Assembly: GCA_018062825.1 (NCBI GenBank) | Contig: JAGORL010000001.1 | Span: forward strand, 125,432 to 189,431 | DNA from: Patescibacteria group bacterium | Lineage (GTDB): Bacteria > Patescibacteriota > Patescibacteriia > UBA9934 | Length of the DNA stretch: 64,000 nucleotides | Direction: 5' to 3' | In this document: positions 27,914 through 44,779 of the stretch, in pieces | How positions within the stretch are numbered: position 1 is the stretch's first letter | Layout of the letters: each line of letters begins with the position of its first letter | Notes under the pieces: model-generated | Databases searched by the model: none | What the model saw: only the letters and a program-made list of their open reading frames with translations | What the model was told of the DNA's origin: nothing | Made by a program: the position numbers and the translations under genes

Positions 27914-28405
27914 ATGCGCCCGGTATCGCTCATGGTTTTTTCGCTCTTCGCCCTTATCTCCCTTGGTATTGGCTGTGCTGCTGCTCGTGATGCTCAGGAA
28001 GTTGAGGTAAGTAATCGCGATGGTGAGGTTTCGCAAGTAGCAAGCATTGATAACGCACCTGAAGCCCCACTTGTTTCGGATATAACATTTACCGCTGCTA
28101 TTGAAGAGATGGAGGTCACATCACCGGTGGATGTGCAGGTAGAAAGCCGAAAGCTCGCAGTAACTGACTTTGCCTTTACGCCAAATGTAATAACCGTTCC
28201 GGCGGATAAACTAATTGAGATCACGATCGATGTTCTTGAAGGTGAGCATACCTTTGTTGCGGAAGAGCTCGGTATCAATGAAGAGCTAACTTTAGGTGAA
28301 ATACTAAGCTTCACAAGCCCAAGCACACCCGGTCGCTACACATTTTATTGTGGCATCGGTCCAAACCGTGGATTAGGCATGGAGGGCGTTATAGTCGTTG
28401 AGTAA
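27914..28405 (+). CDS. cupredoxin-fold (plastocyanin/azurin-like) lipoprotein, copper ligand set apparently incomplete
   Basis: lipobox LISLGIGC; C-terminal F.F.P..ITVPA...I.I......HTF......G.YTFYCGIG...GM.G.IVVE pattern; no His between the Cys and Met. Confidence 0.45.
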   Translation: MRPVSLMVFSLFALISLGIGCAAARDAQEVEVSNRDGEVSQVASIDNAPEAPLVSDITFTAAIEEMEVTSPVDVQVESRKLAVTDFAFTPNVITVPADKLIEITIDVLEGEHTFVAEELGINEELTLGEILSFTSPSTPGRYTFYCGIGPNRGLGMEGVIVVE

Positions 28406-28423
28406 CGCTGTAAAAAAGACAAA

Positions 28424-28444
28424 GCCCGACGCATTGCGTCGGGC
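28424..28444 (-). terminator. hairpin GCCCGACGC-aat-GCGTCGGGC with A-run on + strand (T-run on -); terminates the minus-strand small gene
   Basis: perfect 9-bp stem, TAAAAAAGA immediately 5' on + strand. Confidence 0.6.
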
Positions 28445-28452
28445 CGAGGGGC

Positions 28453-28653
28453 CTAGCGGCGGCCACGAGGAGGGTGGCTCTCGATGATCTCACCGAGTGC
28501 GTCGAAGTAGCAGTCATCATGAACCGGCTTGTCGTCGATCAGGTGACCGCTCTCACCGCTACCGGTAATCGGCAGGTTGCACTGCTCGCACTGCTGAGGC
28601 TCTGCGGGCGCAAGAACTCCGGCGGGCGTTGAAAGGAACGTACGGACATTCAT
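28453..28653 (-). CDS. small (66 aa) Cys/His-containing hypothetical protein in a GC-rich patch
   Basis: ATG at 28653 preceded by GGAGG + 5 nt; CEQC...HDDC; own terminator; local GC clearly above flanks. Confidence 0.35.
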   Translation of the reverse strand: MNVRTFLSTPAGVLAPAEPQQCEQCNLPITGSGESGHLIDDKPVHDDCYFDALGEIIESHPPRGRR

Positions 28654-28712
28654 TGATGCCTCCAGGGTGAAGGTAGGGTAGCAGTAGCAGTAGCGCCTAG
28701 CAAGGTAAAACA

Positions 28713-28736
28713 AAACAACGCCGTGAGGCGTTGTTT
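28713..28736 (-). terminator. terminator hairpin, member 1 of a repeated hairpin family (AAACAACGCC-gtga-GGCGTTGTTT)
   Basis: 10-bp perfect stem directly 3' of the lectin-like gene stop, followed on minus strand by TTTTGTTTTACC. Confidence 0.7.
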
Positions 28737-28742
28737 GAGTTA

Positions 28743-30734
28743 CTAGCGAGCGAACTTCTTAAACAGCGTAACATCGATATCCATAACAAGGTCAGCCCAA
28801 TCGGCGCCAAAACGTTCCTGTGCCGCTTCCTCGCTGGTAATGTACTCAAGCATCGGTCCGGCGGATCCGGTAATGACATGGAATACCTCAGGTTTGCTTT
28901 GTATCTTTACGAGCGATCCAGGCTTTGGAAGCGCAGGCGAGCCCATGGGGATAGTGGCTAGGGTAGCGTCGGTTACCGTATGAACTGCATCAAAATCAGC
29001 AAACCACGTGAAGTAAATGGCGGATGTCATGAACGGTCGGCGAGTGCCGTTCTCAAGAAGGTAGACGGCGTCAAAGTGCTCGCCCTTGATAAGAAGCATG
29101 CCTGTCACGTTCGTAATCGGTTCAATTTCACCATTCCATGGCGATGGCCCGGTGAGCTCCGTTGTTTGCTCGGCTTCCTCATCAACCACCTCTTCATCGA
29201 TAATAGTCTCTTCTGGGCAGTTAGGTGCAGTGATTGAGGCAGTTGCTGAGAGCGTTACTCGAGTGCCCGAGCTGTTGCGAAGAAGAGCGTAGGCAGTTAC
29301 CGACCCGTTCTGCTCTTGAAACGTCCACGGCACAGTTACTGAACCGTCCGTGAGAGAACTCCAGGTACCGCTTGAAAATAATGCATCATGAGCAAGCGTG
29401 TATTCGGTCGCTCCAGGGGCGCTAATGGTCACCATGCCACTTGGGGCAGCGCCTGTACACGAGGTAGCTAAATCAGTAATTCCCATCGTCGCGCCTGTGA
29501 TTGGCGTGATGATCGTTGAGGAAGACGATCGTTCAGTTGTAAAAGTCCAAGCTGTATTACTCGTAATACCAGCAAAGCTACCTCCGGTAGTTGCATCAAA
29601 GGCAGTAGCATCAATGCGTACATATACTTCAGTGCCGCCAGGAAGTGAGACTGTTGGATTGATGGTGATAGTATCGGTGCCGTCTCCTGTTACCTGGCCG
29701 CTCGTCACGTTGATGGTGGTAAGTACGGCGTCATTACTTACGCGATAGATCGTGATATTTCCCGTTTCAACATTAACTGCTTGATCAAAAGTGATAACAA
29801 GATTTTCATTGCGATCAATATCTACGGCGCTGTCGGTTGGAGAAATAGTATCGATAACAGGCGCTTCGTATGTGGTGATGGTGAATTCGTTACCTGCCGT
29901 TTCCGGAAGATCGCCGTCAGCTCCGAACTCAACAACATAGCCTTGAAGCATGGTGCCGGAGCAGGGAAGATCATTCCAAAGGCCAGTTCCGCCAGAGAGG
30001 AATTGCCCACAATCTTCACCAGCGCCGTGTTCATTTGGTTCTCCAGAGCTCCAGTTTTCATACTCGCCAGGAACGACGGTGCCGTTACCAACCCCAACCC
30101 AGAAAAGATCGCCACTTTCAGGGCCGGTAACCCAGCGCCAGTCGCCTTCAACACTGGCATCACTTGCACCCATCCAGCCCGCGCCAGCTAGGCGATCAGC
30201 GACGAAATCATTTTCTTCTTCAGAAGTGATGGTCGTAAGGTATCCCGTTGAACCGTAACGCGAAAGAAGTTCAGCTGCTGCTTCTGCCGCAACCCAATCG
30301 ATATCACCAGGAACCGAAATGTATTCGTAAAGGTGACCATTGTCTGAAAAGAAGACTTCACCAGACTCAACAAGTGAGACTTCAAGCGCATCAGCTCCGG
30401 TTGAATTGCGGGTATAGGTCAGCGTAGCAAGCGCGTCGTTTACATCCTCATAATCTCCTGAGAAGTAAATTTCAGCTCCGGTGGATGGTCCGTCAAATGT
30501 TAGGCCGGTAGTGGTACTCATAGCGAGAGTTCCGTGCGTAACAAGAAGCTTAACAGGAATTACGCCTGTACTACCGGTAATTTCAAGATCAGGGAAAGTA
30601 AAAGCCACGCCTTCGGTAGCCTCTAAGTTATCGGTACCGGTAATTTCCCACGGACTATCAGCGTGAACGGCAGGGGCATGAAAGAGTGATCCGAAAAGAA
30701 CTAAAGCAATCGCTAAGGCGAATATTTTTTTCAT
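28743..30734 (-). CDS. secreted protein with Ig-like domains and a C-type lectin-like domain
   Basis: signal peptide MKKIFALAIALVLFGSLFHAPAVHA; CTLD pattern WMGASD..VEGDWRWVTG......W...NG......ENWSSGEPN.HGAGEDCGQFL.....LWNDLPC......YVVEF. Confidence 0.6.
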   Translation of the reverse strand: MKKIFALAIALVLFGSLFHAPAVHADSPWEITGTDNLEATEGVAFTFPDLEITGSTGVIPVKLLVTHGTLAMSTTTGLTFDGPSTGAEIYFSGDYEDVNDALATLTYTRNSTGADALEVSLVESGEVFFSDNGHLYEYISVPGDIDWVAAEAAAELLSRYGSTGYLTTITSEEENDFVADRLAGAGWMGASDASVEGDWRWVTGPESGDLFWVGVGNGTVVPGEYENWSSGEPNEHGAGEDCGQFLSGGTGLWNDLPCSGTMLQGYVVEFGADGDLPETAGNEFTITTYEAPVIDTISPTDSAVDIDRNENLVITFDQAVNVETGNITIYRVSNDAVLTTINVTSGQVTGDGTDTITINPTVSLPGGTEVYVRIDATAFDATTGGSFAGITSNTAWTFTTERSSSSTIITPITGATMGITDLATSCTGAAPSGMVTISAPGATEYTLAHDALFSSGTWSSLTDGSVTVPWTFQEQNGSVTAYALLRNSSGTRVTLSATASITAPNCPEETIIDEEVVDEEAEQTTELTGPSPWNGEIEPITNVTGMLLIKGEHFDAVYLLENGTRRPFMTSAIYFTWFADFDAVHTVTDATLATIPMGSPALPKPGSLVKIQSKPEVFHVITGSAGPMLEYITSEEAAQERFGADWADLVMDIDVTLFKKFAR

Positions 30735-30800
30735 ACAATTGCAAAAAGTATAGCATGCAGCGTGAGCGATAAAGTAGTGAAATTTGAACAATATCTAGAT

Positions 30801-30833
30801 AACAAAACAACCCCGCGAAGGGTTGCTTTGTTG
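30801..30833. repeat. hairpin AACAAAACAACCCC-gcgaa-GGGGTTGCTTTGTT, variant of the repeated hairpin family
   Basis: 13/14 bp stem; shares the AACAAAACAAC arm with hairpins at 28713, 31711 and 32069. Confidence 0.5.
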
Positions 30834-30927
30834 CTTACTCCAGGGCAACTTTGCTCATAAAATAGTCCTCCGTGGTTCGAATACAATTTTCGATCCCAGT
30901 TTATGCTCGCTAGGTTTTAAAAAAAAT

Positions 30928-30956
30928 GAGACCCCAGACGCTTGGCGCGGGGTCTC
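30928..30956 (-). terminator. rho-independent terminator of HD-like gene
   Basis: GAGACCCC-n13-GGGGTCTC preceded on + strand by A8 (T8 after hairpin on minus strand). Confidence 0.7.
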
Positions 30957-31002
30957 GGTGAGTGCAGCCTTGAAGCGGCGCTCGAGCATCTGGTAGGTCT
31001 GG

Positions 31003-31617
31003 CTAGGCTCGACAGCGTCTGGCACCAGGCCAGGGATCGCTGTCCGACAGGGGGTGATCGAACCACAGTCGCGCACTGGCGACGTCGCACATGTGCGCGA
31101 CTGCCGCGAGCGGACCCATCCGGCGCTCACGCGGCGAATAGTCATTGATCTCACCCTCGGCGTACCGCAGGCCATTCTCCTGTTCGGGCGTGAGCACGAT
31201 TCCGTACTCGCTCAGCTTCTTCATGCGGAAGGCTTGGTGGTCCTCCTTCCTTTCCATGCCAACACGATGCTGGAGCTGACCATCGTTCCCCAGCTCGTAC
31301 TTCCAGGGCTTCTCGACGTCGTGGAGGTACACGACGAGCAGAAGGTCAGAGAGCGAGAAGGGGAGCGGACGCAGCGCGCTCAGAGTCTCGTACTGCACCA
31401 CAGCCAGGTTCATGATCTCCTGAACGTGGTCGTGGTAGCCACCTTGCCAGGCTTGGTGGTTATTGGTCGAGCCCTGCACCGTCTGGAACAGGGCGAGGTT
31501 GTCCTTGAGAATGCTCTGACAGGCTGAGCGGTTGGGCTCATCCATCATGCCGAGCATGCTGTCGATTGAATGGTATTCCGGCACGGTACCTCCAGTAATC
31601 ATGACATCACAATCCAT
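31003..31617 (-). CDS. hypothetical protein, possible HD-domain phosphohydrolase (GC-rich gene)
   Basis: 204 aa; GGYHDHVQEIMNL ... VVYLHDVEKP resembles H..HD...D metal-binding pattern; about 60% GC versus about 50% flanks. Confidence 0.35.
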   Translation of the reverse strand: MDCDVMITGGTVPEYHSIDSMLGMMDEPNRSACQSILKDNLALFQTVQGSTNNHQAWQGGYHDHVQEIMNLAVVQYETLSALRPLPFSLSDLLLVVYLHDVEKPWKYELGNDGQLQHRVGMERKEDHQAFRMKKLSEYGIVLTPEQENGLRYAEGEINDYSPRERRMGPLAAVAHMCDVASARLWFDHPLSDSDPWPGARRCRA

Positions 31618-31710
31618 CTTGGAAGTGATTATTAATTATAATGAGATTTTTCAAAAAAGTCAATATATCAGGGCGGCTAATTTTCATATATTGCTTGACA
31701 TATTGCAAAA

Positions 31711-31738
31711 CAAAACAACGCCCTGAAGCGTTGTTTTG
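31711..31738 (-). terminator. terminator hairpin, family member (CAAAACAACGC-cctgaa-GCGTTGTTTTG)
   Basis: 11-bp stem directly 3' of GIY-YIG gene stop on minus strand; 17-mer CAAAACAAAACAACGCC identical to the 28707 copy. Confidence 0.7.
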
Positions 31739-31785
31739 TATCGATAAGGTCCTGTGGATTGCTCTCCCACTAGGATAGTACTGGT

Positions 31786-32052
31786 CTATGTAAGACTCTC
31801 TTTGATACGTCGTAGTAACGGCACTGAGATCGAGCCACTCTTTTTTACCGAAGATTCACGAAGCCGAGCCGTCAGCTCATTTGTATAGGCCTCATAATAA
31901 ACTAGACGAAATGGTCGATAAGGCCGAGTTGAGTCAACTTCGCCCGTATTATGTTGGTGTAAACGTCTTTCCAGATCGTTCGTGGAGCCCTTGTAGAAAT
32001 AGTTACCCTCCTTCATGCTTTGTAAAACATAGAAGAACCACCATTTTTTCAT
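31786..32052 (-). CDS. GIY-YIG nuclease superfamily protein (88 aa, stand-alone)
   Basis: FFYVLQS.KEGNYFYKGSTNDLERRLHQHN matches the GIY-(10)-YIG + R + E/N core. Confidence 0.7.
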   Translation of the reverse strand: MKKWWFFYVLQSMKEGNYFYKGSTNDLERRLHQHNTGEVDSTRPYRPFRLVYYEAYTNELTARLRESSVKKSGSISVPLLRRIKESLT

Positions 32053-32068
32053 ATAGTTCTATGATAGC

Positions 32069-32094
32069 AAAATAACGCCTAAGGCGTTATTTTG
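32069..32094 (-). terminator. terminator hairpin, family member (CAAAATAACGCC-ta-GGCGTTATTTTG) downstream of tRNA-Asp
   Basis: 12-bp stem, U-rich 3' flank on minus strand. Confidence 0.6.
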
Positions 32095-32163
32095 CTTCAT
32101 CTCGGTGCGACTTTGTGACCCGTATGCTACTTGCATGGCGGGCCACGTCGGTCGCGACCGACG

Positions 32164-32240
32164 TGGCGGGACGGACGGGACTCGAACCCGCAACTTCTGC
32201 CGTGACAGGGCAGTGCTCTAACCAATTGAACTACCGTCCC
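32164..32240 (-). tRNA. tRNA-Asp (anticodon GUC), CCA encoded
   Basis: reverse complement GGGACGGTAGTTCAATTGGTTAGAGCACTGCCCTGTCACGGCAGAAGTTGCGGGTTCGAGTCCCGTCCGTCCCGCCA folds as cloverleaf: 7-bp acceptor, D-arm GTTC/GAGC, anticodon stem CTGCC/GGCAG loop CTGTCAC, T-loop TTCGAGT. Confidence 0.85.
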
Positions 32241-32357
32241 AGATAGTTATTTCGGAGCGGCGTTATAGTATCAAGTCGTAAAAACCTTGGCAAGACAAGA
32301 TATCGGCAAGAAAAACCCTCAGAAAAAGGCCGAAATTATGCTACCATGCGGCCATCT

Positions 32358-32907: not shown

Positions 32908-33279
32908 TCAGTTCGCGCGTGCCTCGAGAACCTGGATGAGCTCCGGGCGGGAGCTGAGGCTCGTGAGGTACAGGCGTTCGTCGGTCTGCACCACGTATCC
33001 CCAGAGCAGGGACTCGTGAACGACCGGATTCGCATGCTGGATGCTCTCCCAGCCTTCGAGGGTTTCGATGCGGCTGAGGCCTCGGAGTGGCTCGATCAGT
33101 CCACCGTAGTAGACCTGATCCAGGCACACGCTGGAGAAGAACCCCAGCATGATGCCGATGAGAAGGAAGAACGTCGCAACGTCCTTATCCTCGGTGCGGG
33201 TGCGGGTAGCGATGCGGGAGATGAGGCTGGACATGGTGTCCTCCTGCGGGGTGGGAACGGGGAAGGAGCGTAGGTACAA
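32908..33279 (-). CDS. small hypothetical membrane protein (GC-rich segment)
   Basis: one TM helix FFLLIGIMLGFFSSV; last gene of the GC-rich minus-strand string. Confidence 0.35.
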   Translation of the reverse strand: MYLRSFPVPTPQEDTMSSLISRIATRTRTEDKDVATFFLLIGIMLGFFSSVCLDQVYYGGLIEPLRGLSRIETLEGWESIQHANPVVHESLLWGYVVQTDERLYLTSLSSRPELIQVLEARAN

Positions 33280-33361
33280 GAGTAATCATAGCAAATTTGA
33301 GCCATTTTGTCAATCAAAAACCCCACGTCATCTTGCGATGCGTGGGGGACGTTTTAGCCTG

Positions 33362-33724
33362 CTAGAGGCTGAAGATACGCTCGAACTCATCGATGCCCAC
33401 CGGCTTCGAGACCGCGTGAGCGTTCAACCGCTGCAGCTCTCGATAGTCAGCATGGTGGACGTCGCCCGAGTTCGCGATGAACAAGGGCGAAGGGTTGAGG
33501 CTCTGCGTAATCCGGTAGATATCAAGGGCGGTTGCGCCCGGGAAGTTGATGTCGCACACGACCACATCGAAGTGCTCGCTGCGCAAGAGGCGCATGGCTT
33601 CCACGCCCTCCGTCGTGTGCACGACGTTCAGGCGCTTGCCTAGTCGCGCGAAGATTCGAGGGAAGAGTTGTACGTAGACGGTGCCGAGTGCGGCATCATC
33701 TTCCACGATCAGCATCTTCTGCAT
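33362..33724 (-). CDS. stand-alone response-regulator receiver (CheY-like) protein, copy 1
   Basis: MLIVEDD...FDVVVCDINFPG...SKP receiver motifs; no output domain. Confidence 0.6.
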   Translation of the reverse strand: MQKMLIVEDDAALGTVYVQLFPRIFARLGKRLNVVHTTEGVEAMRLLRSEHFDVVVCDINFPGATALDIYRITQSLNPSPLFIANSGDVHHADYRELQRLNAHAVSKPVGIDEFERIFSL

Positions 33725-33825
33725 GCCTGAAAGCCTATCCACGAAACCTCCGGTGAGAAAGGAAAAGGGACCAGAGGTCATTGCTGACTTGGTCCCCACG
33801 TTTGCCGTCAGGTCGAGCCTGGCAG

Positions 33826-35151
33826 CTACTTGTTGTCGGTGTCCGCTTCGGTGCGGACCGGTTCGAAGTTGCCGCCTTCGTCGACGGTGATCGTCGGCTC
33901 GACGTCTTCGATGAACTCGGCGAACTGCGGCGGTTTCGGGCTGCACGTGGGCTGCCCGTCACCGTTCGTCTGACCCAGGCCCCAGCACCGAGCGATCGCG
34001 CCCGACGTGGAGGGGAGGGTCGTGTAGGAGCCACCACTGACGACGATCACCTCCTTGAGGTTGATCGTCACGCCGTCGCCATCGCCAGCGACGAGCACGT
34101 GCCCACCGTTGTCACCCGCCGGACCCTTGCGCAGGTCCGGGGCGCAGACCTCCCACCTCTCGTAGTGAGAGAGGTTGGGCCAGTCGAGCTGCACGCTTTC
34201 GAGGGCGCGCTTCTCGTACTCGATGATCGTGCACTTCTGAGCCACGCCCTCGACCTCGACGGTCGCGAGCACGGTGTCGCCGGAGACGGCCACGTAGTAC
34301 TCGTGGCTCACGCTGCTCTCTCCGGGATCCGGCACGGTGGCCGGCACCACCGCGACCGGCTCGGAGCCGATCGTGGCGTTGTCACCACCGGTCGTGAGTG
34401 CGTACAGCCCGATCCCGCCGCCCGTGAAGGCGACGAACCCGAGCACACACACGAGGACCACGGCCATGACGGCCACAGCCCCGATCAGCGGTCGGTGGTT
34501 GCTCGACGCCCGGGCGACGGGGATGTCATCCTCGTCATCCGGCTCGTACTGCACCTCGGCCACCATGGGCGGCTTGGTGTCCCCGAACCACGCTCGATCG
34601 TCGACGTCGGTCGGCCCCGGCGTATTCACGGGGGGCGGCGGCGCTGCCGTCGGCTGAGGCGGCTTCAGGGAGAGCGGCGGGGGCGGGGCATCGGAAGGGG
34701 CGTCGTCCGCCTCCTCCTCCGCTCGCCTGGCCATCTCTTCCTTGGTGAACACGCCGGTTCCATCGCTCGGGTCCGGCGGGGGGAAGACCGGCTGCCTGCT
34801 GATCGTTCCCCCACGCGCACTCGGTCGCGGCGCAGGGCGCGGGTTCGGTCCCGCCCTGAGGGACTCGGGACCGACGCTCGTCGCCGGGAAGGCGACCCGC
34901 GTGCTGGATCCGCGCTCGGTGCTCGGCCCGGGGAGATCCCCGAGCGACTCGTCGAGCATGTCACCACCGACCGGTTCGAGATCTTGTCCCGACAGGTCGA
35001 TGATGGGCTCGTGAGCCCTGCTGCTCGGAACCGTCGCGACCGGAGCGGGGCGAACGGCGGGCGTGGGACGCCCCTCGTCGCTGCTCCTGTCGGCCTCGTC
35101 ACTCATGTCGTCGTCCATCGGACGACCGTCCTGTTCGTCTCCGCCCATCAT
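33826..35151 (-). CDS. single-pass membrane protein, long Pro/Asp-rich cytoplasmic N-region + 4-Cys extracytoplasmic domain (cassette copy 1)
   Basis: RBS GGAGG-5nt-ATGATG at 35151; TM helix LIGAVAVMAVVLVCVLGFVAF; C-domain ...CTIIEYEK...LDWPN.S..ERWEVC..DL......G..L.......I.L.EVI...G.YT.L.ST.GA.ARCWG.GQ.NGDGQP.C.PKP shared with the copy at 35768. Confidence 0.5.
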   Translation of the reverse strand: MMGGDEQDGRPMDDDMSDEADRSSDEGRPTPAVRPAPVATVPSSRAHEPIIDLSGQDLEPVGGDMLDESLGDLPGPSTERGSSTRVAFPATSVGPESLRAGPNPRPAPRPSARGGTISRQPVFPPPDPSDGTGVFTKEEMARRAEEEADDAPSDAPPPPLSLKPPQPTAAPPPPVNTPGPTDVDDRAWFGDTKPPMVAEVQYEPDDEDDIPVARASSNHRPLIGAVAVMAVVLVCVLGFVAFTGGGIGLYALTTGGDNATIGSEPVAVVPATVPDPGESSVSHEYYVAVSGDTVLATVEVEGVAQKCTIIEYEKRALESVQLDWPNLSHYERWEVCAPDLRKGPAGDNGGHVLVAGDGDGVTINLKEVIVVSGGSYTTLPSTSGAIARCWGLGQTNGDGQPTCSPKPPQFAEFIEDVEPTITVDEGGNFEPVRTEADTDNK

Positions 35152-35314
35152 GAGGGCCTCCAGTGCTGGTGGAAGGTGCATGTCACGAACAAAGATGCCC
35201 AAGGAGGGCAAGATCGTCGTCGACCGCGAACTATAGCCAAAAATAAGAAAAACGTCAAGCAAAGGCAGAAAAGAAACACCCGCCACATTCCGGTAAGGGA
35301 TGGGCGGGTACGTG

Positions 35315-35683
35315 CTAGGTAAGTCCGAAGGCCGCGGCAAGTGCCTGGGGGCCATACGGTTTATAGAGGACCGTGACCCCGCGCTCCTTGAGCGTGGTCA
35401 CGTCGGCATGATTGGGATTGCCCGTATTGGCTACGAAGAGCGCTTGGGGCGAGGCTTGTCCCACAAGGTCATGCACCTCGACCGAATTCCCGTGAGGAAA
35501 CTCGATGTCAGACAAGACGTAGTCGAACTTCTTGGTCATGATCGCCTTCCTGGCCTCGTGGCCGTCGGCAGCGATCGTGATGACGGTCGTGTGACCGGCA
35601 TTTGCGAACAGTCGAGCGCAGGTGCGCTGAGCCGCCCGCTGCAAGAGATCGTTATCCTCCACGATCAGGACAAAGTATTCCAC
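35315..35683 (-). CDS. stand-alone response-regulator receiver (CheY-like) protein, copy 2 (GTG start)
   Basis: VLIVEDND...FDYVLSDIEFP...YKP; RBS GGAGA upstream. Confidence 0.65.
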   Translation of the reverse strand: MEYFVLIVEDNDLLQRAAQRTCARLFANAGHTTVITIAADGHEARKAIMTKKFDYVLSDIEFPHGNSVEVHDLVGQASPQALFVANTGNPNHADVTTLKERGVTVLYKPYGPQALAAAFGLT

Positions 35684-35767
35684 ACCACTCTCCTATAAAA
35701 GATGAGAGGGGACCGACGCACAGCATGGCTGATTGTCGATCCCCTCGAGGGTTGCTGCGAAGTACTG

Positions 35768-36412
35768 CTACTTCGCGGCGGCGTTCTGGGCGACCACGTT
35801 GGCGGGCGCGGCGGGCTTCGGCGTGCAGGCGGGCTGCCCGTCACCGTTGACCTGGCCAGCACCCCAGCAGCGCGCGAGCGCTCCGGGGGTGGAGACGAGG
35901 GCGGTATAGTCGCCGGTGGTCGTGATGACCTCCGACAACTTGATCCGCTTCCCGCCGACCGTGAGCACCATCGCGCCGTGGGCATCGGCGGCCTCCTTCT
36001 TCAGGTCGGTGCCGCAGATCTCCCACCGCTCCTTGGAGCTCTTGTTCGGCCAGGTCAGGTCGACGCCCTCGATCAGGTCCTTCTCGAAGGTCACGATGGC
36101 ACACAGGTGATCCTGGCGCTTGATCGTGACCGGGGCGAGGCGGACGTCGTCGTTGACGGCGACCGTGATCGGACCGGGGGTGATGGTCACCGCGAGCGGC
36201 GTCTCGCCGGGGTCGCTGGTCTCCTCGGCCACCACCACGGTCGGCTGGTTGCCGACGGCGGGGGTGCGCGACATGTAGCCGACGCCGATCATGAGGATGA
36301 CCATGAGCACGCCGAGAAAACCGGCGATCATGAGGGGGTTGTAGCCCCCTTGGTCGTTCTTGACCTCGCTCGTGTGGGTGGTGGTCTCGGTCGTGATGGA
36401 CGGCTCGGACAT
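35768..36412 (-). CDS. single-pass membrane protein with the same 4-Cys extracytoplasmic domain (cassette copy 2)
   Basis: RBS GGAGG-4nt-ATG at 36412; MSEPSITTE...; TM LMIAGFLGVLMVILMIGVGY; C-domain ...CAIVTFEK...LTWPNKSSKERWEICGTDL...ARCWGAGQVNGDGQPACTPKP. Confidence 0.5.
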   Translation of the reverse strand: MSEPSITTETTTHTSEVKNDQGGYNPLMIAGFLGVLMVILMIGVGYMSRTPAVGNQPTVVVAEETSDPGETPLAVTITPGPITVAVNDDVRLAPVTIKRQDHLCAIVTFEKDLIEGVDLTWPNKSSKERWEICGTDLKKEAADAHGAMVLTVGGKRIKLSEVITTTGDYTALVSTPGALARCWGAGQVNGDGQPACTPKPAAPANVVAQNAAAK

Positions 36413-36537
36413 GGTGCCTCCAGAGGCGTGGGAAGGTGCGTGTCGCGATAAGTGAAGCCGTTGTGGCCTACCGATCGCTGACCAACTATAATAGCAGAAA
36501 AACCCTGTTTCGTCAAGGTTGCTGATTGCAAGAACAA

Positions 36538-37849: not shown

Positions 37850-38261
37850 TGGTGGACTTGAGGAGAGTTGAACTCCTGTCCGGTCAGCCGCCCGATAGTG
37901 ATTATTCCAAGCTCATGCACGCTTGAGAGTACGACCAGAGCGCTAAAGGCGTGCCGTAAATGCGCTCGTGAAGATCCTTTCGCCAGAGGTCACGTTGCCG
38001 GAAAAGATAACAGCAACGTCAATCCTAGATAGATATAACACCTGTGATTCTTACTCTAGGCAGCAAGAGACAGATGGTTGCAGGCTTTATTAAGCGGCAA
38101 CAAACGCGAATGAAGGTGTAGCAAATGCCGAAGCAAGTGCGGCCTTAGCGCGTGAGAATACGTTGGCAGGTATTCGAATTGCATCATTGGGTTGCGGGGT
38201 AATGGTGCACCCCCGGCTTGATCATCTATCGTTTGTACTGCCGTCGATTCCCGGCAAGCCC
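37850..38261 (-). ncRNA. ssrA: tmRNA (ssrA), about 412 nt
   Basis: 5' GGGCUUGCCGGGAAUCGACGG (tmRNA 5' consensus GG.UUCGACGG); 3' AGGAG-UUCAACU-CUCCU-CAAGUCC-ACCA; acceptor GGGCUUG/CAAGUCC with G3:U70; internal ORF ending GCG UUU GUU GCC GCU UAA UAA; 12 nt downstream of smpB stop. Confidence 0.7.
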
Positions 38262-38273
38262 ACAAACGGTTGG

Positions 38274-38717
38274 TTATTCGTGCATGTTGGCGCGAATTTC
38301 GCGCTCAACGTCACGCTTTTTGAGGGCGTCGCGCTTTTCATGGGCCTTTTTGCCCCGAGCTAGCGCAAACTCCACCTTTACCAAACCGCGACGATTATAC
38401 AAGGAAAGGGGCACGATGGTCAATCGCTCCGCATCTTGTTTTCCGCGAAGATAACCCAACTCCTTTTTTGAAACGAGCACCTTTCTACCAGTACGAGTGT
38501 CTGCGCCGTCCTTTGGCTGGCCGGCGGGGAGGTAGTGACCAATGTGCATGTTCTTCAAAAAGAGTTCACCATTCTCAATACGCAAAAACGCTCCCTTTAA
38601 GGAGGTATTGCCAGCACGAATAGATTTCACCTCAGCACCAGAGAGCATTAAGCCACCCTCAAAGGTTTGAAGGATTTCGTACTCATGACGTGCCGATCGA
38701 TTGATGGCGTACGACAT
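38274..38717 (-). CDS. smpB: SsrA-binding protein SmpB
   Basis: MSYAINRSARHEYEILQTFEGGLMLSGAEVKSIRAGNTSLKGAFLRIENGELFL... SmpB family. Confidence 0.85.
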   Translation of the reverse strand: MSYAINRSARHEYEILQTFEGGLMLSGAEVKSIRAGNTSLKGAFLRIENGELFLKNMHIGHYLPAGQPKDGADTRTGRKVLVSKKELGYLRGKQDAERLTIVPLSLYNRRGLVKVEFALARGKKAHEKRDALKKRDVEREIRANMHE

Positions 38718-38745
38718 ATGGATGAATGGTACAATATCTGTAGAT

Positions 38746-39789
38746 ATGGCGGAACGCAAAGAGCCGCAAACCCGAATGATCTCGATCTCAACCGGAACAA
38801 TCTTCCGCACGATCGTTATTTTACTCGTCTTGGGGTTCCTTTATTTCATTAGAGATATTGTCGCGCTCGTACTAGCCGGGCTCTTTTTGGCGATCTTGAT
38901 TGATCCGTTTGCTGACTTTTTAGAGCGTTACCGTATGCCACGTTCTTTGGCGGCGGTTGTGGTCTACGCTGTTGGTCTCACGCTCGTCTTTGGCGCCTTG
39001 GTTCTTGTGCTACCGCCGGTACTTGCTGAATTAAAAAACTTCTTCGCCGTTTTTGCGCCAGTACTCACGGCAGTTGGCGGTGAAGGCGTTGCACAGCAAT
39101 CAGTGAATGCTACGGATGACTGGATGCTACGTTTTGATGCTGCCTGGAGTTCAGTGCAGGCCTCAGGCGTTTCGGCAGCTGTGCCACAAGTGGTGTCATC
39201 GGCGTCAGCGGCATTTTCAGGAATCACGGCCGCTATCGTGGTACTGATTTTGGCGTTTTATCTTGTTGCTGAAAAAAATGTCTTATTGCGTGTTATTGCG
39301 GGCGCTACGCCTGAGGAGTATCAGCCGTTTGTGATGCAGGTAGCAGGGAAGGTGAGGGATCGTCTTGGGTATTGGTTGCGTGGTCAGTTGCTCCTCATGG
39401 TCGTCATCTTTGTCCTCACTTATATTGCACTTCTTATTATTGGGGTGCCATATGCGCTTATCTTGGCGCTTATCGCAGGTCTTCTTGAGATCGTGCCACT
39501 TGTGGGGCCGCTTATGTCAGGCGTGCCGGCGGTGATCTTAGCGCTCACCATTTCGCCAGTGCACGCTTTAGTCACTGCGGGCGCCTATATCCTTATTCAA
39601 GTCGTTGAGGGTAATGTGCTCGTACCAAAGGTGATGCAGAAAGCTACGGGTATTAATCCGATCATTAGTTTGATCGCTGTCTTGATCGGTTGGCGTATTG
39701 GCGGTATGGTTGGTGCCATTTTATCAATCCCGCTTGCTAATGCCGCCGCCGTCTTTATTGGAGAAATTACTAAAGCACAACGAACATAA
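38746..39789 (+). CDS. AI-2E family transporter (PerM/UPF0118-type membrane protein)
   Basis: 8 TM helices and the family's conserved ...GQLLLMVVIFVLTY...LLEIVPLVGP... region; start chosen to avoid overlap with divergent smpB. Confidence 0.65.
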   Translation: MAERKEPQTRMISISTGTIFRTIVILLVLGFLYFIRDIVALVLAGLFLAILIDPFADFLERYRMPRSLAAVVVYAVGLTLVFGALVLVLPPVLAELKNFFAVFAPVLTAVGGEGVAQQSVNATDDWMLRFDAAWSSVQASGVSAAVPQVVSSASAAFSGITAAIVVLILAFYLVAEKNVLLRVIAGATPEEYQPFVMQVAGKVRDRLGYWLRGQLLLMVVIFVLTYIALLIIGVPYALILALIAGLLEIVPLVGPLMSGVPAVILALTISPVHALVTAGAYILIQVVEGNVLVPKVMQKATGINPIISLIAVLIGWRIGGMVGAILSIPLANAAAVFIGEITKAQRT

Positions 39790-40923: not shown

Positions 40924-42039
40924 ATGCCTGAACAAAAATCTTCCATTTTCCCATTCGGATTCCTTCTACTGGCTGTAACGCTAAGCGCGGCTACGGCAGT
41001 TATTGCCGCTGTTAGTGTTTCAAATAGCCTTGATCGTTATGCAGCGACGCTCCTTGATGATCGCCGCTTTGCAGCACTTGCGCCACAAAAAGCGAGCCCA
41101 ATTCCAGGAACATATGAGGAAGCGTTGCAGCGTGTTCGAGAAAAAACCTATCCTGCTTACGCTCTGATTTTTGAAAAAGGGGCAACCACGGTTTACCCAG
41201 ATCTCTTTGTGGCAGACGCTGAAGCGTTAGCTCGCGGCATGGTGATCACCTCAGATGGCTGGATCATGACGGCATCCACGGCTGCGTTTGAGGCTGATGA
41301 GATCTCCATTGCTATTGAAGGGAAGTGGTACGTGGTGGCGCAGGTTGTGCAAGATATCGATTCGCCATACGTGCTCATGAAGGTTGCTGAGGCTTCGGGG
41401 TTAGCAACGATCGGGTTTGGTGATTCAGCTCAGATGCGCGCTGGAGAGATGGCGTTTGCTCTTACAGCTGACCGCGCAATCGAGCCTTTATCAATTGTAA
41501 ATATCGCGCCGGCAAACGGCGCAGCTCCGGAAGAGGCTGAGCGTGTGACAGACGTTTTTACGTCATCATTAAGTCTTGAGGCTGGCACTCCAGTTGTAAA
41601 TGGTTCAGGTGACGTAATCGGTTTTGCGATCGGAGAAGATGCTATTGCGCCACTACATCAAGCAACCCTCTTTGCTCGTGACGTTGTTCGCGGTCGCGAC
41701 GTAGTAGCGGCGGGGCTTGGTGTATACGTGAGTGAAGTTTCTCGTATTATAAATATCGATCCAGTTCTCGCGCAGGGACAGGTAGCGGGCGCGCTCATTG
41801 GTGCGCCTGTGCGTGGGGGAGTGGCGGTTGTTCCTGGTAGTCCCGCGGCAAACGCTGGTCTTTTAGCGAAAGATATCATTGTAGCGGTAGATGGCACGCC
41901 GCTTACGGCAGATACCTCACTTGCTGAGATGTTGCAGTTATATGATCCAGGCGAAAGCGCTCGCCTGTCATTAATGCGCTCAAACGAGCGTATCGAGGTA
42001 ACAGTTACCTTTATTGATAGCGCACAGATTGAGTACTAA
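40924..42039 (+). CDS. membrane-anchored HtrA-like protein with C-terminal PDZ domain; protease catalytic motifs degenerate
   Basis: N-terminal TM, trypsin-like core without GNSGGP, C-terminal PDZ (GAPVRGGVAVVPGSPAANAGLLAKDIIVAVDGTPL). Confidence 0.45.
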   Translation: MPEQKSSIFPFGFLLLAVTLSAATAVIAAVSVSNSLDRYAATLLDDRRFAALAPQKASPIPGTYEEALQRVREKTYPAYALIFEKGATTVYPDLFVADAEALARGMVITSDGWIMTASTAAFEADEISIAIEGKWYVVAQVVQDIDSPYVLMKVAEASGLATIGFGDSAQMRAGEMAFALTADRAIEPLSIVNIAPANGAAPEEAERVTDVFTSSLSLEAGTPVVNGSGDVIGFAIGEDAIAPLHQATLFARDVVRGRDVVAAGLGVYVSEVSRIINIDPVLAQGQVAGALIGAPVRGGVAVVPGSPAANAGLLAKDIIVAVDGTPLTADTSLAEMLQLYDPGESARLSLMRSNERIEVTVTFIDSAQIEY

Positions 42040-42060
42040 AAGATATACCCAATAAGTGGA

Positions 42061-42086
42061 AAAACCGGCTTGACGTGCCGGTTTTT
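42061..42086 (+). terminator. rho-independent terminator
   Basis: AAAACCGGC-ttgacgtg-CCGGTTTTT. Confidence 0.8.
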
Positions 42087-42241
42087 GCTTTGTTAAGGTC
42101 GGCCTGACCTCGATTTCGGGGACTTCGTGGAACGGTCGTGACGTCTCCTCCTCGTCGCGATTCGCGCCCGCGAAGTCTCCAAAGCCGAGGTCATTTTTAT
42201 TGAAAAATTGCTAGTTTTAGCCAAGGAATGACAGGGAAATC

Positions 42242-42270
42242 TTGACATTTCCCGTATTTTTTGCTACTAT
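42242..42270 (+). promoter_or_regulatory. near-consensus sigma70-type promoter (TTGACA-17-TACTAT) driving the GC-rich gene pair
   Basis: cTTGACAtttcccgtattttttgcTACTATagactg. Confidence 0.55.
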
Positions 42271-42458
42271 AGACTGTTCGAGAAAGCAGCCAAATGAACG
42301 GTATTCCCTCGGCTCAATTGCGTTCCACTCCTCCAGGGACGCAGTTGAGCCACGGGAGTGCCGTTCGGGCGCTACCACAGAACGGGCCTCGCCCGAACAC
42401 CACGCGTCCTTTCCACTCACTGTCAGTTTGCCGCTTTCACTAGCGGCTGGAGGATCCG

Positions 42459-43391: not shown

Positions 43392-43619
43392 CCTCTCTGG
43401 TCAGTGACTTCGGTCGCTGATCGGACAGGTCGTGGCGCTGTGTGACATACGAAAGTATGTTGCATGGCGCCTATTCGTTTACCAAAAAATTGACGAAAAT
43501 AGAAAAATAGGCTACGGTACGGCGTCACTTTTCAAAGCTACCAAGAGTTGCACTTGCGGCATTTCTTGGGAGACTTGAAGAGGAATTGGCCTCTCAAGCT
43601 CACACATTCTGGAGGGAAC

Positions 43620-44714: not shown

Positions 44715-44738
44715 GAATCACTGATCACAAGGCGTACC

Positions 44739-44779
44739 GCCCCATCGTTGCATACGTGCAATGGTGGGGCCGTTTTTTT
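44739..44779 (+). terminator. rho-independent terminator (14-bp stem + T7)
   Basis: GCCCCATCGTTGCA-tacg-TGCAATGGTGGGGC-CGTTTTTTT. Confidence 0.8.

What the first reader, a model, noticed from the sequence alone, without database searches (positions are those of the whole stretch)
28713..32094. Family of four near-identical hairpins (CAAAACAAAACAACGCC-loop-GGCGTTGTTTTG) confined to the accessory region
Hairpins at 28713-28736, 30801-30833 (variant CAACCCC/GGGGTTG), 31711-31738 and 32069-32094 share the arm AACAAAACAAC(G/C)CC. Two copies share an identical 17-mer, far beyond what independent terminators would share. Each sits at a gene boundary on the minus strand, after the lectin gene, before the lectin gene, after the GIY-YIG gene and after tRNA-Asp. 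They are plausible rho-independent terminators, since a U-rich tract follows on the minus strand. No copy occurs elsewhere in the 64 kb, where terminators have unrelated stems. A repeated, cassette-delimiting palindromic element restricted to an acquired region could be a small mobile or recombinogenic repeat (REP/BIME-like) or the shared 3' signature of cassettes delivered by one mechanism.
Basis: seen in the sequence. Interest (0 to 1): 0.5.

Follow-up and report, generated by a model that had tools for sequence, protein, structure and literature searches.

The report
Repeated tRNA-trailer terminator hairpins, GIY-YIG insertion
The four look-alike hairpins are most likely transcription terminators: two bracket a small GIY-YIG nuclease gene that comes and goes right behind tRNA genes in related Patescibacteria, while the other two share only the stem and their origin is a guess.

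Summary
Four hairpins with arms AAAA(C/T)AAC(G/C)CC lie at 28707-28736, 30799-30832, 31707-31741 and 32066-32096, and nowhere else in the 64 kb (0 expected). The exact word shared by two copies is 16 nt, not 17, and on its own is unremarkable.

All four read best as minus-strand intrinsic terminators of consecutive units behind the only tRNA gene, tRNA-Asp.

They are not REP/BIME-like, and in the 64 kb they are not the generic terminator. In related Patescibacteria metagenome contigs the same hairpin ends a conserved, covarying ~75-nt trailer directly 3' of tRNA-Ser, -Leu and -Asp genes. Rfam has no such family.

A GIY-YIG gene with a 24-26-nt palindrome inserts exactly after the tRNA CCA end. 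One population holds both an empty allele and an allele with a 1.1-kb insert flanked by a 9-nt repeat, with 98-99.9% identical flanks. The insert brings an H4-type hairpin; the H3-type hairpin belongs to the original trailer.

H2 sits where the tRNA terminator lies in a relative with tRNA-Asp next to the lectin gene. H1 is closest to H3 of the same genome, so probably a local copy.

The lectin is a conserved syntenic gene, not acquired. Main caveats: relatives were fetched by the hairpin pattern, and the rest of the source genome could not be read.

The parts
32265..32293 (-). Promoter-like site of tRNA-Asp (TTGCCA-17-TACTAT, TG-extended)
   Evidence: The same sequence precedes tRNA-Asp in the 94% relative L017.
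32164..32240 (-). tRNA-Asp (GTC), the only tRNA gene in the window and the anchor of the hairpin array
32142..32167 (.). Perfect 26-nt palindrome GCCACGTCGGTCGCGACCGACGTGGC overlapping the tRNA CCA end. A second copy of the tRNA 3' end, CCCGCCA, follows at 32142-32136.
   Evidence: The same palindrome lies next to GIY-YIG genes in L020, L024, L037, L059, L061, L118 and L145. Both arms have changed but the palindrome is kept in L100 and L147-L152.
32097..32141 (-). Short trailer (type A') between the palindrome and H4, partly homologous to the tRNA trailer family
   Evidence: The model R1 match over 32064-32171 scores 37.4 bits and aligns CCCGCCAC and the inner hairpin. It is 89-92% identical to L082, L037 and L024.
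32066..32096 (-). H4: 14-bp perfect hairpin AGCAAAATAACGCC-TTA-GGCGTTATTTTGCT. It is the terminator candidate for tRNA-Asp. Its tail forms an extended -10-like TGCTATCAT (32069-32061), 8 nt before the GIY-YIG ATG.
   Evidence: (-22.8 kcal/mol, z = -8.8).
31786..32052 (-). GIY-YIG nuclease gene (88 aa, nuclease domain only)
   Evidence: Pfam PF01541, E = 1e-12. Closest solved structures are UPF0213 proteins and SLX1. Homologues at 64-87% identity occur across Patescibacteria.
31742..31811 (-). Conserved tRNA-trailer element (type B). Here its 5' end overlaps the last codons and the stop codon of GIY-YIG.
   Evidence: Full-length R1 match 31707-31811 at 68.7 bits.
31707..31741 (-). H3: hairpin ACAAAACAACGCU-UCAG-GGCGUUGUUUUGU plus UUUUG. 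It ends the trailer and is the terminator candidate for GIY-YIG.
31003..31663 (-). 204-aa gene of unknown family with its own promoter-like site (31663-31635, 11 of 12 matches)
   Evidence: no family found in any library.
30921..30955 (-). Non-family terminator-like hairpin GAGACCCC...GGGGTCTC followed by T8, after the 204-aa gene
   Evidence: Read directly from the sequence.
30799..30832 (-). H2: hairpin AACAAAGCAACCC-UUCGCG-GGGUUGUUUUGUU. It matches the canonical hairpin of relatives at 97% and lies 65 nt upstream of the lectin start codon.
   Evidence: -18.8 kcal/mol on the minus strand, -15.0 on the plus strand; 35.2 bits, hairpin part only.
28743..30734 (-). Secreted Ig-like/C-type lectin protein (663 aa). 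This is a conserved syntenic gene, not a cassette.
28707..28736 (-). H1: hairpin AAACAACGCC-UCAC-GGCGUUGUUU plus UGUUUUA, starting 6 nt after the lectin stop codon. It is most similar to H3 of the same genome.
   Evidence: flagged terminator-like on the minus strand; 23.6 bits, hairpin only.
28453..28653 (-). 66-aa gene downstream of H1, the last unit of the minus-strand block
   Evidence: Gene call in L002. No family found.
28423..28445 (.). Unrelated GC-rich hairpin between the convergent 66-aa and cupredoxin genes

Best explanation
The four hairpins are Rho-independent terminators of four successive minus-strand transcription units behind tRNA-Asp:
- H4 follows the tRNA.
- H3 follows the GIY-YIG gene.
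- H2 closes the spacer in front of the lectin gene.
- H1 follows the lectin gene.

They resemble each other because they descend from one element. That element is the terminator stem-loop ending a conserved, structured ~75-nt trailer directly 3' of tRNA genes in this group of Patescibacteria.

DNA is repeatedly inserted exactly behind the tRNA CCA end. The clearest case is a small selfish cassette. It consists of a 24-26-nt palindrome, a second copy of the tRNA 3' end, a short trailer with its own hairpin (H4 type) and a GIY-YIG nuclease gene. After insertion the tRNA is terminated by the hairpin the cassette brought. The original trailer hairpin (H3 type) then terminates the cassette. Each insertion therefore adds one more hairpin copy.

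Shown: the hairpins and their clustering; homology of H3 and H4 with their flanks to such modules; the empty and occupied alleles in relatives.

Inferred:
- Termination itself.
- That the window's GIY-YIG arrived by insertion.
- That H2 is the older, displaced tRNA terminator.
- That H1 is a local copy or conversion product of H3/H4.
- That the nuclease drives the insertion.
For: **Terminator anatomy**
- The stems are stable: -16.9 to -22.8 kcal/mol, z = -3.7 to -8.8.
- T-rich tails follow on the minus strand.
- H2 and H3 fold better as minus-strand RNA because of G-U pairs: -18.8 against -15.0, and -18.6 against -17.4.
- Each hairpin starts 6-60 nt after a minus-strand unit.

**Clustering**
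- All copies lie within 3.4 kb of the only tRNA gene, and none elsewhere.

**Trailer family**
- In metagenome loci the hairpin CAAAACAACCC-UUCG-CGGGGUUGUUUUG follows a conserved trailer directly after the CCA end. The tRNAs are Ser(cga, gga, tga), Leu(taa) and Asp.
- The window's H3 has the same trailer, with a full-length model match of 68.7 bits.
- L143, fetched through the lectin protein and not through the pattern, has the complete trailer and hairpin at 98.7 bits.
- Structure support: 94% of cells are paired against 45-53% when the partners are slid. Eight pairs have changed on both sides (2 of 500 shuffles reach this). The covariation score is 0.162 against 0.100.

**Insertion**
- L127 (empty) and L037/L064 (occupied) have flanks 98-99.9% identical. 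They differ by a 1103-nt insert placed right after ...CCCGCCACG, and that 9-mer is repeated at the far end.
- The insert starts with the palindrome and an H4-type hairpin. It carries GIY-YIG plus two ORFs.
- L095 (empty) and L082 (occupied) show the same pattern at tRNA-Asp.
- The palindrome, H4-type hairpin and GIY-YIG combination lies behind tRNA-Asp (L059, L061, L024/L037) and tRNA-Ser (L118). L082 has it behind tRNA-Asp with an imperfect palindrome. L020 has the palindrome and GIY-YIG behind tRNA-Gln but no family hairpin.

**H2**
- In L144, tRNA-Asp lies directly upstream of the lectin orthologue and is co-oriented with it, with a terminator in between.

**H1**
- Lectin terminators in L143 and L144 are unrelated to the family.
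- H1 shares the CGCC/GGCG core and the 16-nt 3' arm plus U-tract with H3 of the same genome. Relatives have CCCC/GGGG at that position.
Against: - There is no transcript data, so termination is inferred.
- H4 and H2 have weak U-tracts once the A/U-paired part of the stem is counted. The terminator scan did not flag H3 or H4 on the minus strand.
- H1 and H2 have no detectable trailer or tRNA-end remnant. Their flanks match nothing fetched. Their link to the insertion model rests on position and stem similarity only.
- The related loci were fetched with the hairpin pattern itself, so the near-invariance of the stem is partly ascertainment. Trailers with other terminator stems exist: the third copy in L088, and L058.
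- GIY-YIG loci reached through the protein lack the family hairpin (L019, L020, L145-L152).
- The polarity of the difference from L144, insertion or deletion, is not determined.
- The 88-aa nuclease has no DNA-binding domain, so site-specific homing by it is unproven. A deletion between the 9-nt repeats would give the same pair of alleles.
- The rest of the source genome could not be searched.
Confidence: 0.6

Rival explanations
1. The four are independent, convergent terminators. Selection for an A-tract, a short GC core and a U-tract gives similar stems by chance, and nothing links them historically.
For: - Other hairpins in the window have the same style with other cores (7206, 36537, 42058, 49728, 60964).
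- The same stem occurs in unrelated bacteria such as Lamprobacter, Shewanella, Bdellovibrionales and Anaerolineales.
- It also occurs in at least 120 metagenome contigs, most of them unrelated.
- Exact 16-mers recur elsewhere in the window.
Against: - Four copies lie within 3.4 kb and none in the other 60 kb, with 0 expected.
- H3 and H4 are homologous, with their flanks, to modules at the same position in relatives.
- H1 matches H3 at roughly 30 of 33 positions, including the derived CGCC/GGCG core.
Confidence: 0.1
2. The hairpin is a small autonomous or trans-mobilised palindromic repeat (REP/BIME- or MITE-like) that spreads through intergenic regions and only incidentally sits at gene ends.
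For: - The unit is about 30-35 nt, palindromic and multi-copy.
- In the distant contig L093, four similar hairpins with shared flanking motifs follow four genes.
Against: - No copy lies outside the tRNA-Asp block in 64 kb.
- In about 100 kb of related long loci, the stems that clearly belong to the family (CAAAAYAACSCC type) lie in tRNA-trailer or GIY-YIG contexts.
- Orientation always follows transcription.
- No transposase or RAYT-like domain was found among the neighbouring ORFs scanned.
- In L093 the shared flank is a copy of the tRNA-Gln 3' end. That points to tRNA-site insertion, not random spread.
Confidence: 0.08
3. The hairpin itself is the crossover site of a site-specific recombination system, like an integron attC or a tRNA att site. 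The genes between hairpins are cassettes captured by a recombinase encoded elsewhere.
For: - Units are bracketed by like hairpins behind a tRNA, both here and in L080, L088, L131 and L093.
- In those relatives, copies of the tRNA 3' end (7-20 nt) precede the distal hairpins.
- Cargo next to such sites includes CBASS-like genes.
Against: - The junction in the empty and occupied pair lies at the CCA end, about 75 nt upstream of the hairpin, not inside it.
- No integrase was found near the array.
- The hairpins are 26-34 nt, perfect or nearly perfect stems, without attC-like extrahelical bases.
- The 204-aa gene has its own promoter-like site and terminator. The lectin gene is a conserved syntenic gene.
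Confidence: 0.12

Closest known systems
Bidirectional-style Rho-independent terminators (A-tract, GC stem, U-tract)
   Same: Stable stem-loop directly after a gene. The U-rich 3' side pairs with an upstream A-tract. Each sits at the end of a transcription unit.
   Different: Ordinary terminators of neighbouring genes do not share their stem sequence. Here four neighbours do. The stem recurs together with a conserved upstream trailer behind several different tRNAs in other genomes.
Free-standing GIY-YIG homing endonuclease genes of T4-like phages, notably segB in the tRNA intergenic region (PMC2988022, Table 1)
   Same: A small GIY-YIG gene sits between genes next to tRNA genes. It is present or absent at a fixed site between otherwise near-identical genomes. 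Hairpins sit just upstream of the ORF. The same review describes such hairpins for the regulation of seg and mob genes.
   Different: The host is a cellular Patescibacteria genome, not a phage. The protein is only 88 aa, with no DNA-binding domain, and is closest to UPF0213/SLX1-type nucleases. A conserved palindrome and a duplicated tRNA 3' end mark the left junction. No cleavage activity is known.
Genomic islands integrated at tRNA 3' ends (att duplication by tyrosine integrases; general knowledge, not checked in a paper here)
   Same: Insertion occurs at the tRNA 3' end. Direct repeats of the tRNA end flank the insert. Tandem arrays and variable cargo lie behind the tRNA.
   Different: No integrase was found. 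Inserts are 0.4-1.4 kb. The junction lies after the CCA end and not inside the tRNA. The repeat is only 7-9 nt in the best pair.
REP/BIME and other intergenic palindromic repeats (general knowledge)
   Same: Short repeated palindromic units at gene ends.
   Different: These copies are not dispersed in the 64 kb. They are tied to tRNA flanks and consistently oriented with transcription. No associated transposase was seen.

Membership tests
Rho-independent (intrinsic) terminator | Stable GC-containing stem-loop | tested here: met
   10-14 bp stems; -16.9 to -22.8 kcal/mol; z = -3.7 to -8.8.
Rho-independent (intrinsic) terminator | U-rich tract immediately 3' of the stem on the transcribed strand | tested here: inconclusive
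   Clear for H1 (UGUUUUA) and H3 (UUUUG). For H2 and H4 the U-run lies inside the extended A/U-paired stem and the tail beyond it is not U-rich.
Rho-independent (intrinsic) terminator | Lies downstream of a transcription unit on the same strand | tested here: met
   After tRNA-Asp, after GIY-YIG, after the 204-aa unit and spacer, and after the lectin gene, all on the minus strand.
Rho-independent (intrinsic) terminator | Transcript 3' ends map to the U-tract | not testable with these tools
   No RNA data available.
REP/BIME-type dispersed palindromic repeat | Many copies dispersed in intergenic regions across the genome | tested here: not met
   No copy in the remaining 60 kb of the window. 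In related long loci, stems of the CAAAAYAACSCC type lie only at tRNA or GIY-YIG contexts. The whole genome was not available.
REP/BIME-type dispersed palindromic repeat | Associated RAYT or transposase | tested here: inconclusive
   None among about 30 ORFs scanned with Pfam, but only part of the window and none of the rest of the genome was scanned.
Integron cassette array (attC sites) | IntI integrase and attI next to the array | tested here: not met
   Neighbours are a tRNA, a kinase-like ATPase, cupredoxin and pyruvate kinase. No integrase domain was found.
Integron cassette array (attC sites) | attC of about 57-141 bp with imperfect arms and extrahelical bases; promoterless cassettes | tested here: not met
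   The hairpins are 26-34 nt with perfect or near-perfect stems. The 204-aa gene has its own promoter-like site.
tRNA-site integrative element | Direct repeat of the tRNA 3' end flanking the insert | tested here: met
   The 9-nt CCCGCCACG flanks the 1103-nt insert in L037. In the window, CCCGCCA is repeated after the palindrome. Repeats of 12-20 nt occur in L143, L131 and L093.
tRNA-site integrative element | Element-encoded integrase | tested here: not met
   The L037 insert has three ORFs of at least 90 aa: GIY-YIG and two small ORFs whose families were not scanned, too short for a typical integrase. The window block carries GIY-YIG, a 204-aa protein of unknown family, the lectin and a 66-aa protein.
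Free-standing GIY-YIG homing endonuclease gene | GIY-YIG catalytic domain | tested here: met
   PF01541, E = 1e-12, residues 5-71.
Free-standing GIY-YIG homing endonuclease gene | Presence or absence at one site between otherwise near-identical genomes | tested here: met
   L127 against L037/L064, with flanks 98-99.9% identical. Shown in relatives, not for the window strain itself.
Free-standing GIY-YIG homing endonuclease gene | Separate DNA-binding domain giving site specificity | tested here: not met
   The protein is 88 aa, nuclease domain only. The closest solved chains are UPF0213 proteins and the SLX1 nuclease domain.
Free-standing GIY-YIG homing endonuclease gene | Cleaves the empty allele | not testable with these tools
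   Needs a biochemical assay.
Any described RNA family (Rfam 15) | Match to a curated covariance model | tested here: not met
   Only tRNA and tmRNA were found in the window at gathering score. On seven related loci, nothing but tRNA-overlapping sub-threshold hits covered the trailer at E up to 1.

The most novel reading that the evidence does not exclude
Patescibacteria of this group carry an undescribed, integrase-less insertion system aimed at the first base after the tRNA CCA end. It would have two parts:
- A conserved structured trailer RNA with its terminator, acting as a landing pad shared by several tRNA loci.
- A minimal selfish cassette made of a palindrome, a copy of the tRNA end, a spare terminator and an 88-aa GIY-YIG nuclease that homes into the pad.

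Other genes accumulate behind the tRNA as arrays whose units each end in a copy of the hairpin. The four hairpins in the window would be the footprint of that process.
Probability: 0.3. Interest if true: 0.7.

Novelty: new variant of a known kind. Interest (0 to 1): 0.5.

Why it matters
As terminators the hairpins are ordinary. Their repetition exposes three things that the tools found nowhere described:

- **A conserved RNA element.** A covarying ~75-nt element plus terminator lies directly behind tRNA genes in a group of Patescibacteria. It matches no Rfam family.
- **A minimal mobile cassette.** A GIY-YIG cassette occurs as empty and occupied alleles at the tRNA CCA end within one natural population.
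- **Gene arrays behind tRNAs.** Small arrays of genes, including defence-type genes in relatives, build up at these sites.

If the mechanism holds, it gives a concrete, testable example of how ultra-small, integrase-poor genomes gain and lose genes. It also suggests a candidate activity for the widespread UPF0213-type GIY-YIG proteins.

Tried and rejected
**Finding the source genome**
- Exact look-ups of window proteins gave only a 1.6-kb and a 5.3-kb contig.
- The identical GIY-YIG and lectin proteins are recorded on a 406,338-bp NCBI contig. That contig could not be fetched.
- The genome contigs pattern scan returned only unrelated taxa.

**Checks that found nothing**
- Extended similarity around the hairpins: none beyond about 35 nt.
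- Flanks of H1 and H2 against all fetched loci: no homologues.
- A 14-nt match between the spacer upstream of H2 and the end of an ORF in L082 was not backed by any protein-level similarity and was dropped.
- A possible decayed tRNA 3' end upstream of H2 (TTCGAA..CCACG) is not supported by the model, which aligns only the hairpin.
- Rfam at gathering and at E-value thresholds: no family for the trailer.
- NCBIfam, PHROGs and PADLOC for the 204-aa and 66-aa proteins: nothing.
- Literature searches on GIY-YIG with tRNA and Patescibacteria, on UPF0213, and on terminators in the Candidate Phyla Radiation: nothing on this arrangement.

**Ideas considered and rejected**
- DNA uptake sequence. These are evenly spread through a genome, whereas this motif is local.
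- Assembly artefact. An independent assembly is identical.

Full report
**1. What is in the sequence**

Four hairpins are present:

| Name | Coordinates | Stem |
|---|---|---|
| H1 | 28707-28736 | 10 bp |
| H2 | 30799-30832 | 12 bp, 1 mismatch |
| H3 | 31707-31741 | 13 bp, 1 mismatch |
| H4 | 32066-32096 | 14 bp, perfect |

- A repeat search groups H1, H2 and H3 at 100/80/93% identity over 30 nt. H4 is a variant (ATAACGCC).
- The arm motif gives 7 matches against 0.99 expected.
- A degenerate stem-loop-stem pattern fitting all four hits nothing else in 64 kb, with 0 expected.
- Similarity stops about 35 nt around each hairpin.
- The exact word shared by H1 and H3 is 16 nt, not 17. Exact 16-mers recur at about nine other places, so that argument is weak on its own.
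- An independent assembly is identical over 5.25 kb.

**2. Strand and likely function**

The order on the minus strand is as follows:
- promoter-like site (32293-32265)
- tRNA-Asp (32240-32164)
- H4
- GIY-YIG gene (32052-31786)
- H3
- promoter-like site (31663-31635)
- 204-aa gene (31617-31003), with its own unrelated hairpin plus T8 (30955-30921)
- an 88-nt spacer
- H2
- lectin gene (30734-28743)
- H1
- 66-aa gene (28653-28453)

T-rich tails follow H1 and H3 on the minus strand. H2 and H3 contain G-U pairs that exist only in the minus-strand RNA, and both fold better on that strand. I read all four as intrinsic terminators. This is an inference, because there are no transcript data. H2 and H4 have weak tails once the A/U-paired part of the stem is counted.

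Other hairpins in the window have the same style (A-tract, GC core, T-tract) but unrelated cores.

**3. Organism and the 'accessory region' claim**

- Pyruvate kinase homologues place the window in Patescibacteria. The nearest named relatives are Uhrbacteria. The closest sequence is 94% identical on a 4-kb contig, and the next are 63%.
- GC content across the block is 0.49-0.53, like the rest of the genome.
- The lectin gene has full-length orthologues at 50-60% identity. It lies a few kb from pyruvate kinase, in the same relative orientation, in L143 and L144. It is therefore a conserved neighbour, not an acquired cassette.
- In L144, tRNA-Asp sits directly upstream of the lectin gene on the same strand, with a simple unrelated terminator between them.
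- Relative to that arrangement, the window has the GIY-YIG and 204-aa units between the tRNA and the lectin gene.

**4. The hairpin outside the window**

An exact scan of one genome per species found the stem in 14 places, all in unrelated taxa. The source species was absent.

The metagenome scan with the degenerate pattern hit at least 120 contigs, and the list was truncated. Most are unrelated look-alike terminators. About 25 are related to the window. In these:
- The hairpin CAAAACAACCC-UUCG-CGGGGUUGUUUUG is preceded by a conserved ~75-nt element.
- That element starts right after the CCA end of tRNA-Ser(cga, gga, tga), tRNA-Leu(taa) or tRNA-Asp.
- The window's H3 carries the same element between the GIY-YIG stop codon and the hairpin.

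The consensus fold has three parts:
- a long-range helix;
- an inner variable hairpin with clear covariation; one pair is UA in 7 sequences, CG in 5 and AU in 1;
- the terminator.

On an alignment of 18 matches:
- 94% of cells pair, against 45-53% with slid partners.
- Eight pairs changed on both sides, a level reached by 2 of 500 shuffles.
- This alignment was fitted to the model, which favours the structure.

Rfam has no matching family.

The model scores H3 at 68.7 bits over its full length. The H4 region scores 37.4 bits, with part of the trailer aligned. H2 scores 35.2 and H1 23.6, hairpin only in both. All other window hairpins score 20 or less.

L143 was fetched through the lectin protein, not the pattern. 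It has a complete trailer plus hairpin at 98.7 bits.

**5. The GIY-YIG insertion**

Homologues of the 88-aa protein (64-87% identity) are common in Patescibacteria. Its closest solved relatives are UPF0213 proteins and the SLX1 nuclease domain.

In every pattern-fetched locus with a GIY-YIG homologue and enough flank (L059, L061, L118, L024/L037, L082) the order behind a tRNA is:
- tRNA CCA end;
- a 24-26-nt palindrome (CCACGTCGGTCGCGACCGACGTGG; imperfect in L082), where the flank reaches it;
- a second copy of the tRNA 3' end;
- a short trailer;
- an H4-type hairpin;
- about 15 nt (about 40 in L118);
- the ATG.

The tRNA is Asp in all but L118, where it is Ser. L020, reached through the protein, has the palindrome and GIY-YIG behind tRNA-Gln but no family hairpin.

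More distant loci keep the palindrome with both arms changed (CCACGGCGTTCGCGAACGCCGTGG; CCATGTCGG..CCGACATGG). Its symmetry is therefore under selection.

The decisive pair comes from sibling metagenomes:
- L127 has tRNA-Asp followed at once by the trailer and hairpin.
- L037/L064 have flanks 98-99.9% identical to L127.
- They carry a 1103-nt insert right after ...CCCGCCACG, and the 9-mer is repeated at the far end.
- The insert begins with the palindrome and an H4-type hairpin and carries GIY-YIG plus two small ORFs.

L095 (empty) and L082 (occupied), from one groundwater sample, show the same pattern. In L082, as in the window, the ORF runs into the trailer and uses a stop codon within it.

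Thus the H4-type hairpin comes with the insert, and the H3-type hairpin is the tRNA's original trailer terminator. This is shown for relatives and inferred for the window.

Just after H4-type hairpins, a TGnTAT(C/A/G)AT box lies 8-9 nt before the ATG in five loci. It may be an extended -10 element. This too is inference.

**6. Reading the four copies**

- **H4:** the terminator supplied by the cassette for the tRNA.
- **H3:** the original trailer terminator, now serving GIY-YIG.
- **H2:** matches the canonical hairpin of relatives at 97% and sits where the tRNA terminator lies in L144. It is probably an older terminator pushed away from the tRNA by insertions. It has no trailer or tRNA-end remnant that the model can see, so this step is weak.
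- **H1:** lectin terminators in relatives are unrelated. H1 shares the derived CGCC/GGCG core and the 16-nt 3' arm plus U-tract with H3 of the same genome. It is probably a local duplication or conversion. The mechanism is unknown.

Arrays of the same kind occur in relatives. Each is a tRNA followed by units that end in a copy of the tRNA 3' end, a trailer and a hairpin. Examples are L080, L088 (three units), L131 and the distant 32%-GC contig L093.

**7. Rivals**

- **Pure convergence** is unlikely, given the clustering and the flank homology of H3 and H4.
- **A REP/BIME- or MITE-like repeat** fits poorly. No copies lie away from the tRNA block in 64 kb. In about 100 kb of related long loci, stems of the CAAAAYAACSCC type lie only in tRNA-trailer or GIY-YIG contexts.
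- **An integron-like or att-site role for the hairpin itself** is disfavoured. The junction lies at the CCA end, about 75 nt upstream of the hairpin. No integrase was found.

**8. Caveats**

- Relatives were fetched with the hairpin pattern, so the apparent invariance of the stem (9 of 13 pairs never vary) is partly ascertainment.
- Trailers with other terminator stems exist.
- GIY-YIG loci reached through the protein lack the family hairpin.
- The empty and occupied pair could reflect deletion between the 9-nt repeats rather than insertion.
- The nuclease has no DNA-binding domain, so its role in mobility is a hypothesis.
- The remainder of the source genome was not searchable.

**9. Comparison with known systems, and verdict**

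- In function, the hairpins are ordinary intrinsic terminators.
- In arrangement, the closest known case is the free-standing GIY-YIG homing endonuclease gene segB in the tRNA region of phage T4 (PMC2988022).
- tRNA-site genomic islands are a second parallel.
- This case differs from both in host, protein size, junction position and the lack of an integrase.
- No paper describing the arrangement was found.

I rate it a new variant of a known kind, of moderate interest.

Noticed in passing
window 32136-32167; also L020 5895-5926, L118 3665-3690 and 4572-4597, L100 12633-12665 and 12989-13020, and the first ~260 nt upstream of GIY-YIG in L145-L152: A perfect 24-26-nt palindrome (CCACGTCGGTCGCGACCGACGTGG, centre TCGCGA) overlaps the tRNA CCA end and is followed by a second copy of the tRNA 3' end. 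It accompanies GIY-YIG genes even where no tRNA is adjacent. In some lineages both arms have changed while the palindrome is kept. It may be a protein binding or cleavage site, or a cruciform.
   Followed up: partly
L017 3485-4105 compared with window 27914-32300: In the closest relative (pyruvate kinase 94% identical), the tRNA-Asp promoter and gene follow cupredoxin directly on the same strand. That is the opposite orientation to the window and 3.8 kb closer. It implies an inversion or loss of the whole block in one lineage. L018 and L100 share the L017 orientation. L061 and L144 share the window's.
   Followed up: partly
L093 240-9700: This is a 32%-GC contig from another lineage. tRNA-Gln is followed by four similar hairpins, each preceded by a copy of the tRNA-Gln 3' end ((GTCC)GCGAAC). 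They separate large genes, including a lectin-like one. The architecture matches the window's array.
   Followed up: partly
L095 247-1721; L143 1819-3356: CBASS-like genes lie directly downstream of tRNA trailer plus hairpin units in relatives. L143 has precomputed Pfam hits to CD-NTase_C, SMODS (faint) and Cap15_CD_rec. In L095 the reading rests only on my inspection of the ORF sequences. The tRNA 3' flank seems to be a hot spot for variable or defence genes.
   Followed up: no
L042 12724-13220: A second, different small ORF with GIY-YIG-like motifs (judged by eye; MYTVYIIQS...YYYGFS...EHN) lies directly 3' of tRNA-Ser(cga) and ends at the canonical family hairpin.
   Followed up: no
window 33000-36500 and 42000-45000: These segments reach 60-70% GC in a roughly 50% GC genome. 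Long ORFs overlap on both strands, and most have no Pfam hit. Yet the response regulator (33362-33946), IF3 and SmpB around them are syntenic with relative L018.
   Followed up: partly
window 37850-38261: The tmRNA has a long tag peptide, ANVFSRAKAALASAFATPSFAFVAA. SmpB lies just upstream at 38274-38810.
   Followed up: no
window 10603-19917: A 3104-aa ORF contains many Cys-rich repeats of about 126 nt (CGDG...C.DG motifs). Its counterpart in L018 carries TIG, Big_5 and DUF4215 hits.
   Followed up: no
window 30851-30895: The spacer upstream of H2 holds a Shine-Dalgarno-like GGAGG plus a 7-codon ORF (MSKVALE) that ends right at H2. It also has a 14-nt match (GGGATCGAAAATTG) to the end of an ORF next to the H3-type hairpin of L082. 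No protein-level homology was found.
   Followed up: partly
L088 3452-3559, 4913-5023 and 6526-6623; L058 335-447: L088 has three tandem units, each a tRNA-end copy followed by a trailer and terminator. The third has a different terminator stem (ACACAAAATCGCC...). L058 has a trailer with yet another stem. The trailer is therefore more conserved than the particular hairpin.
   Followed up: partly
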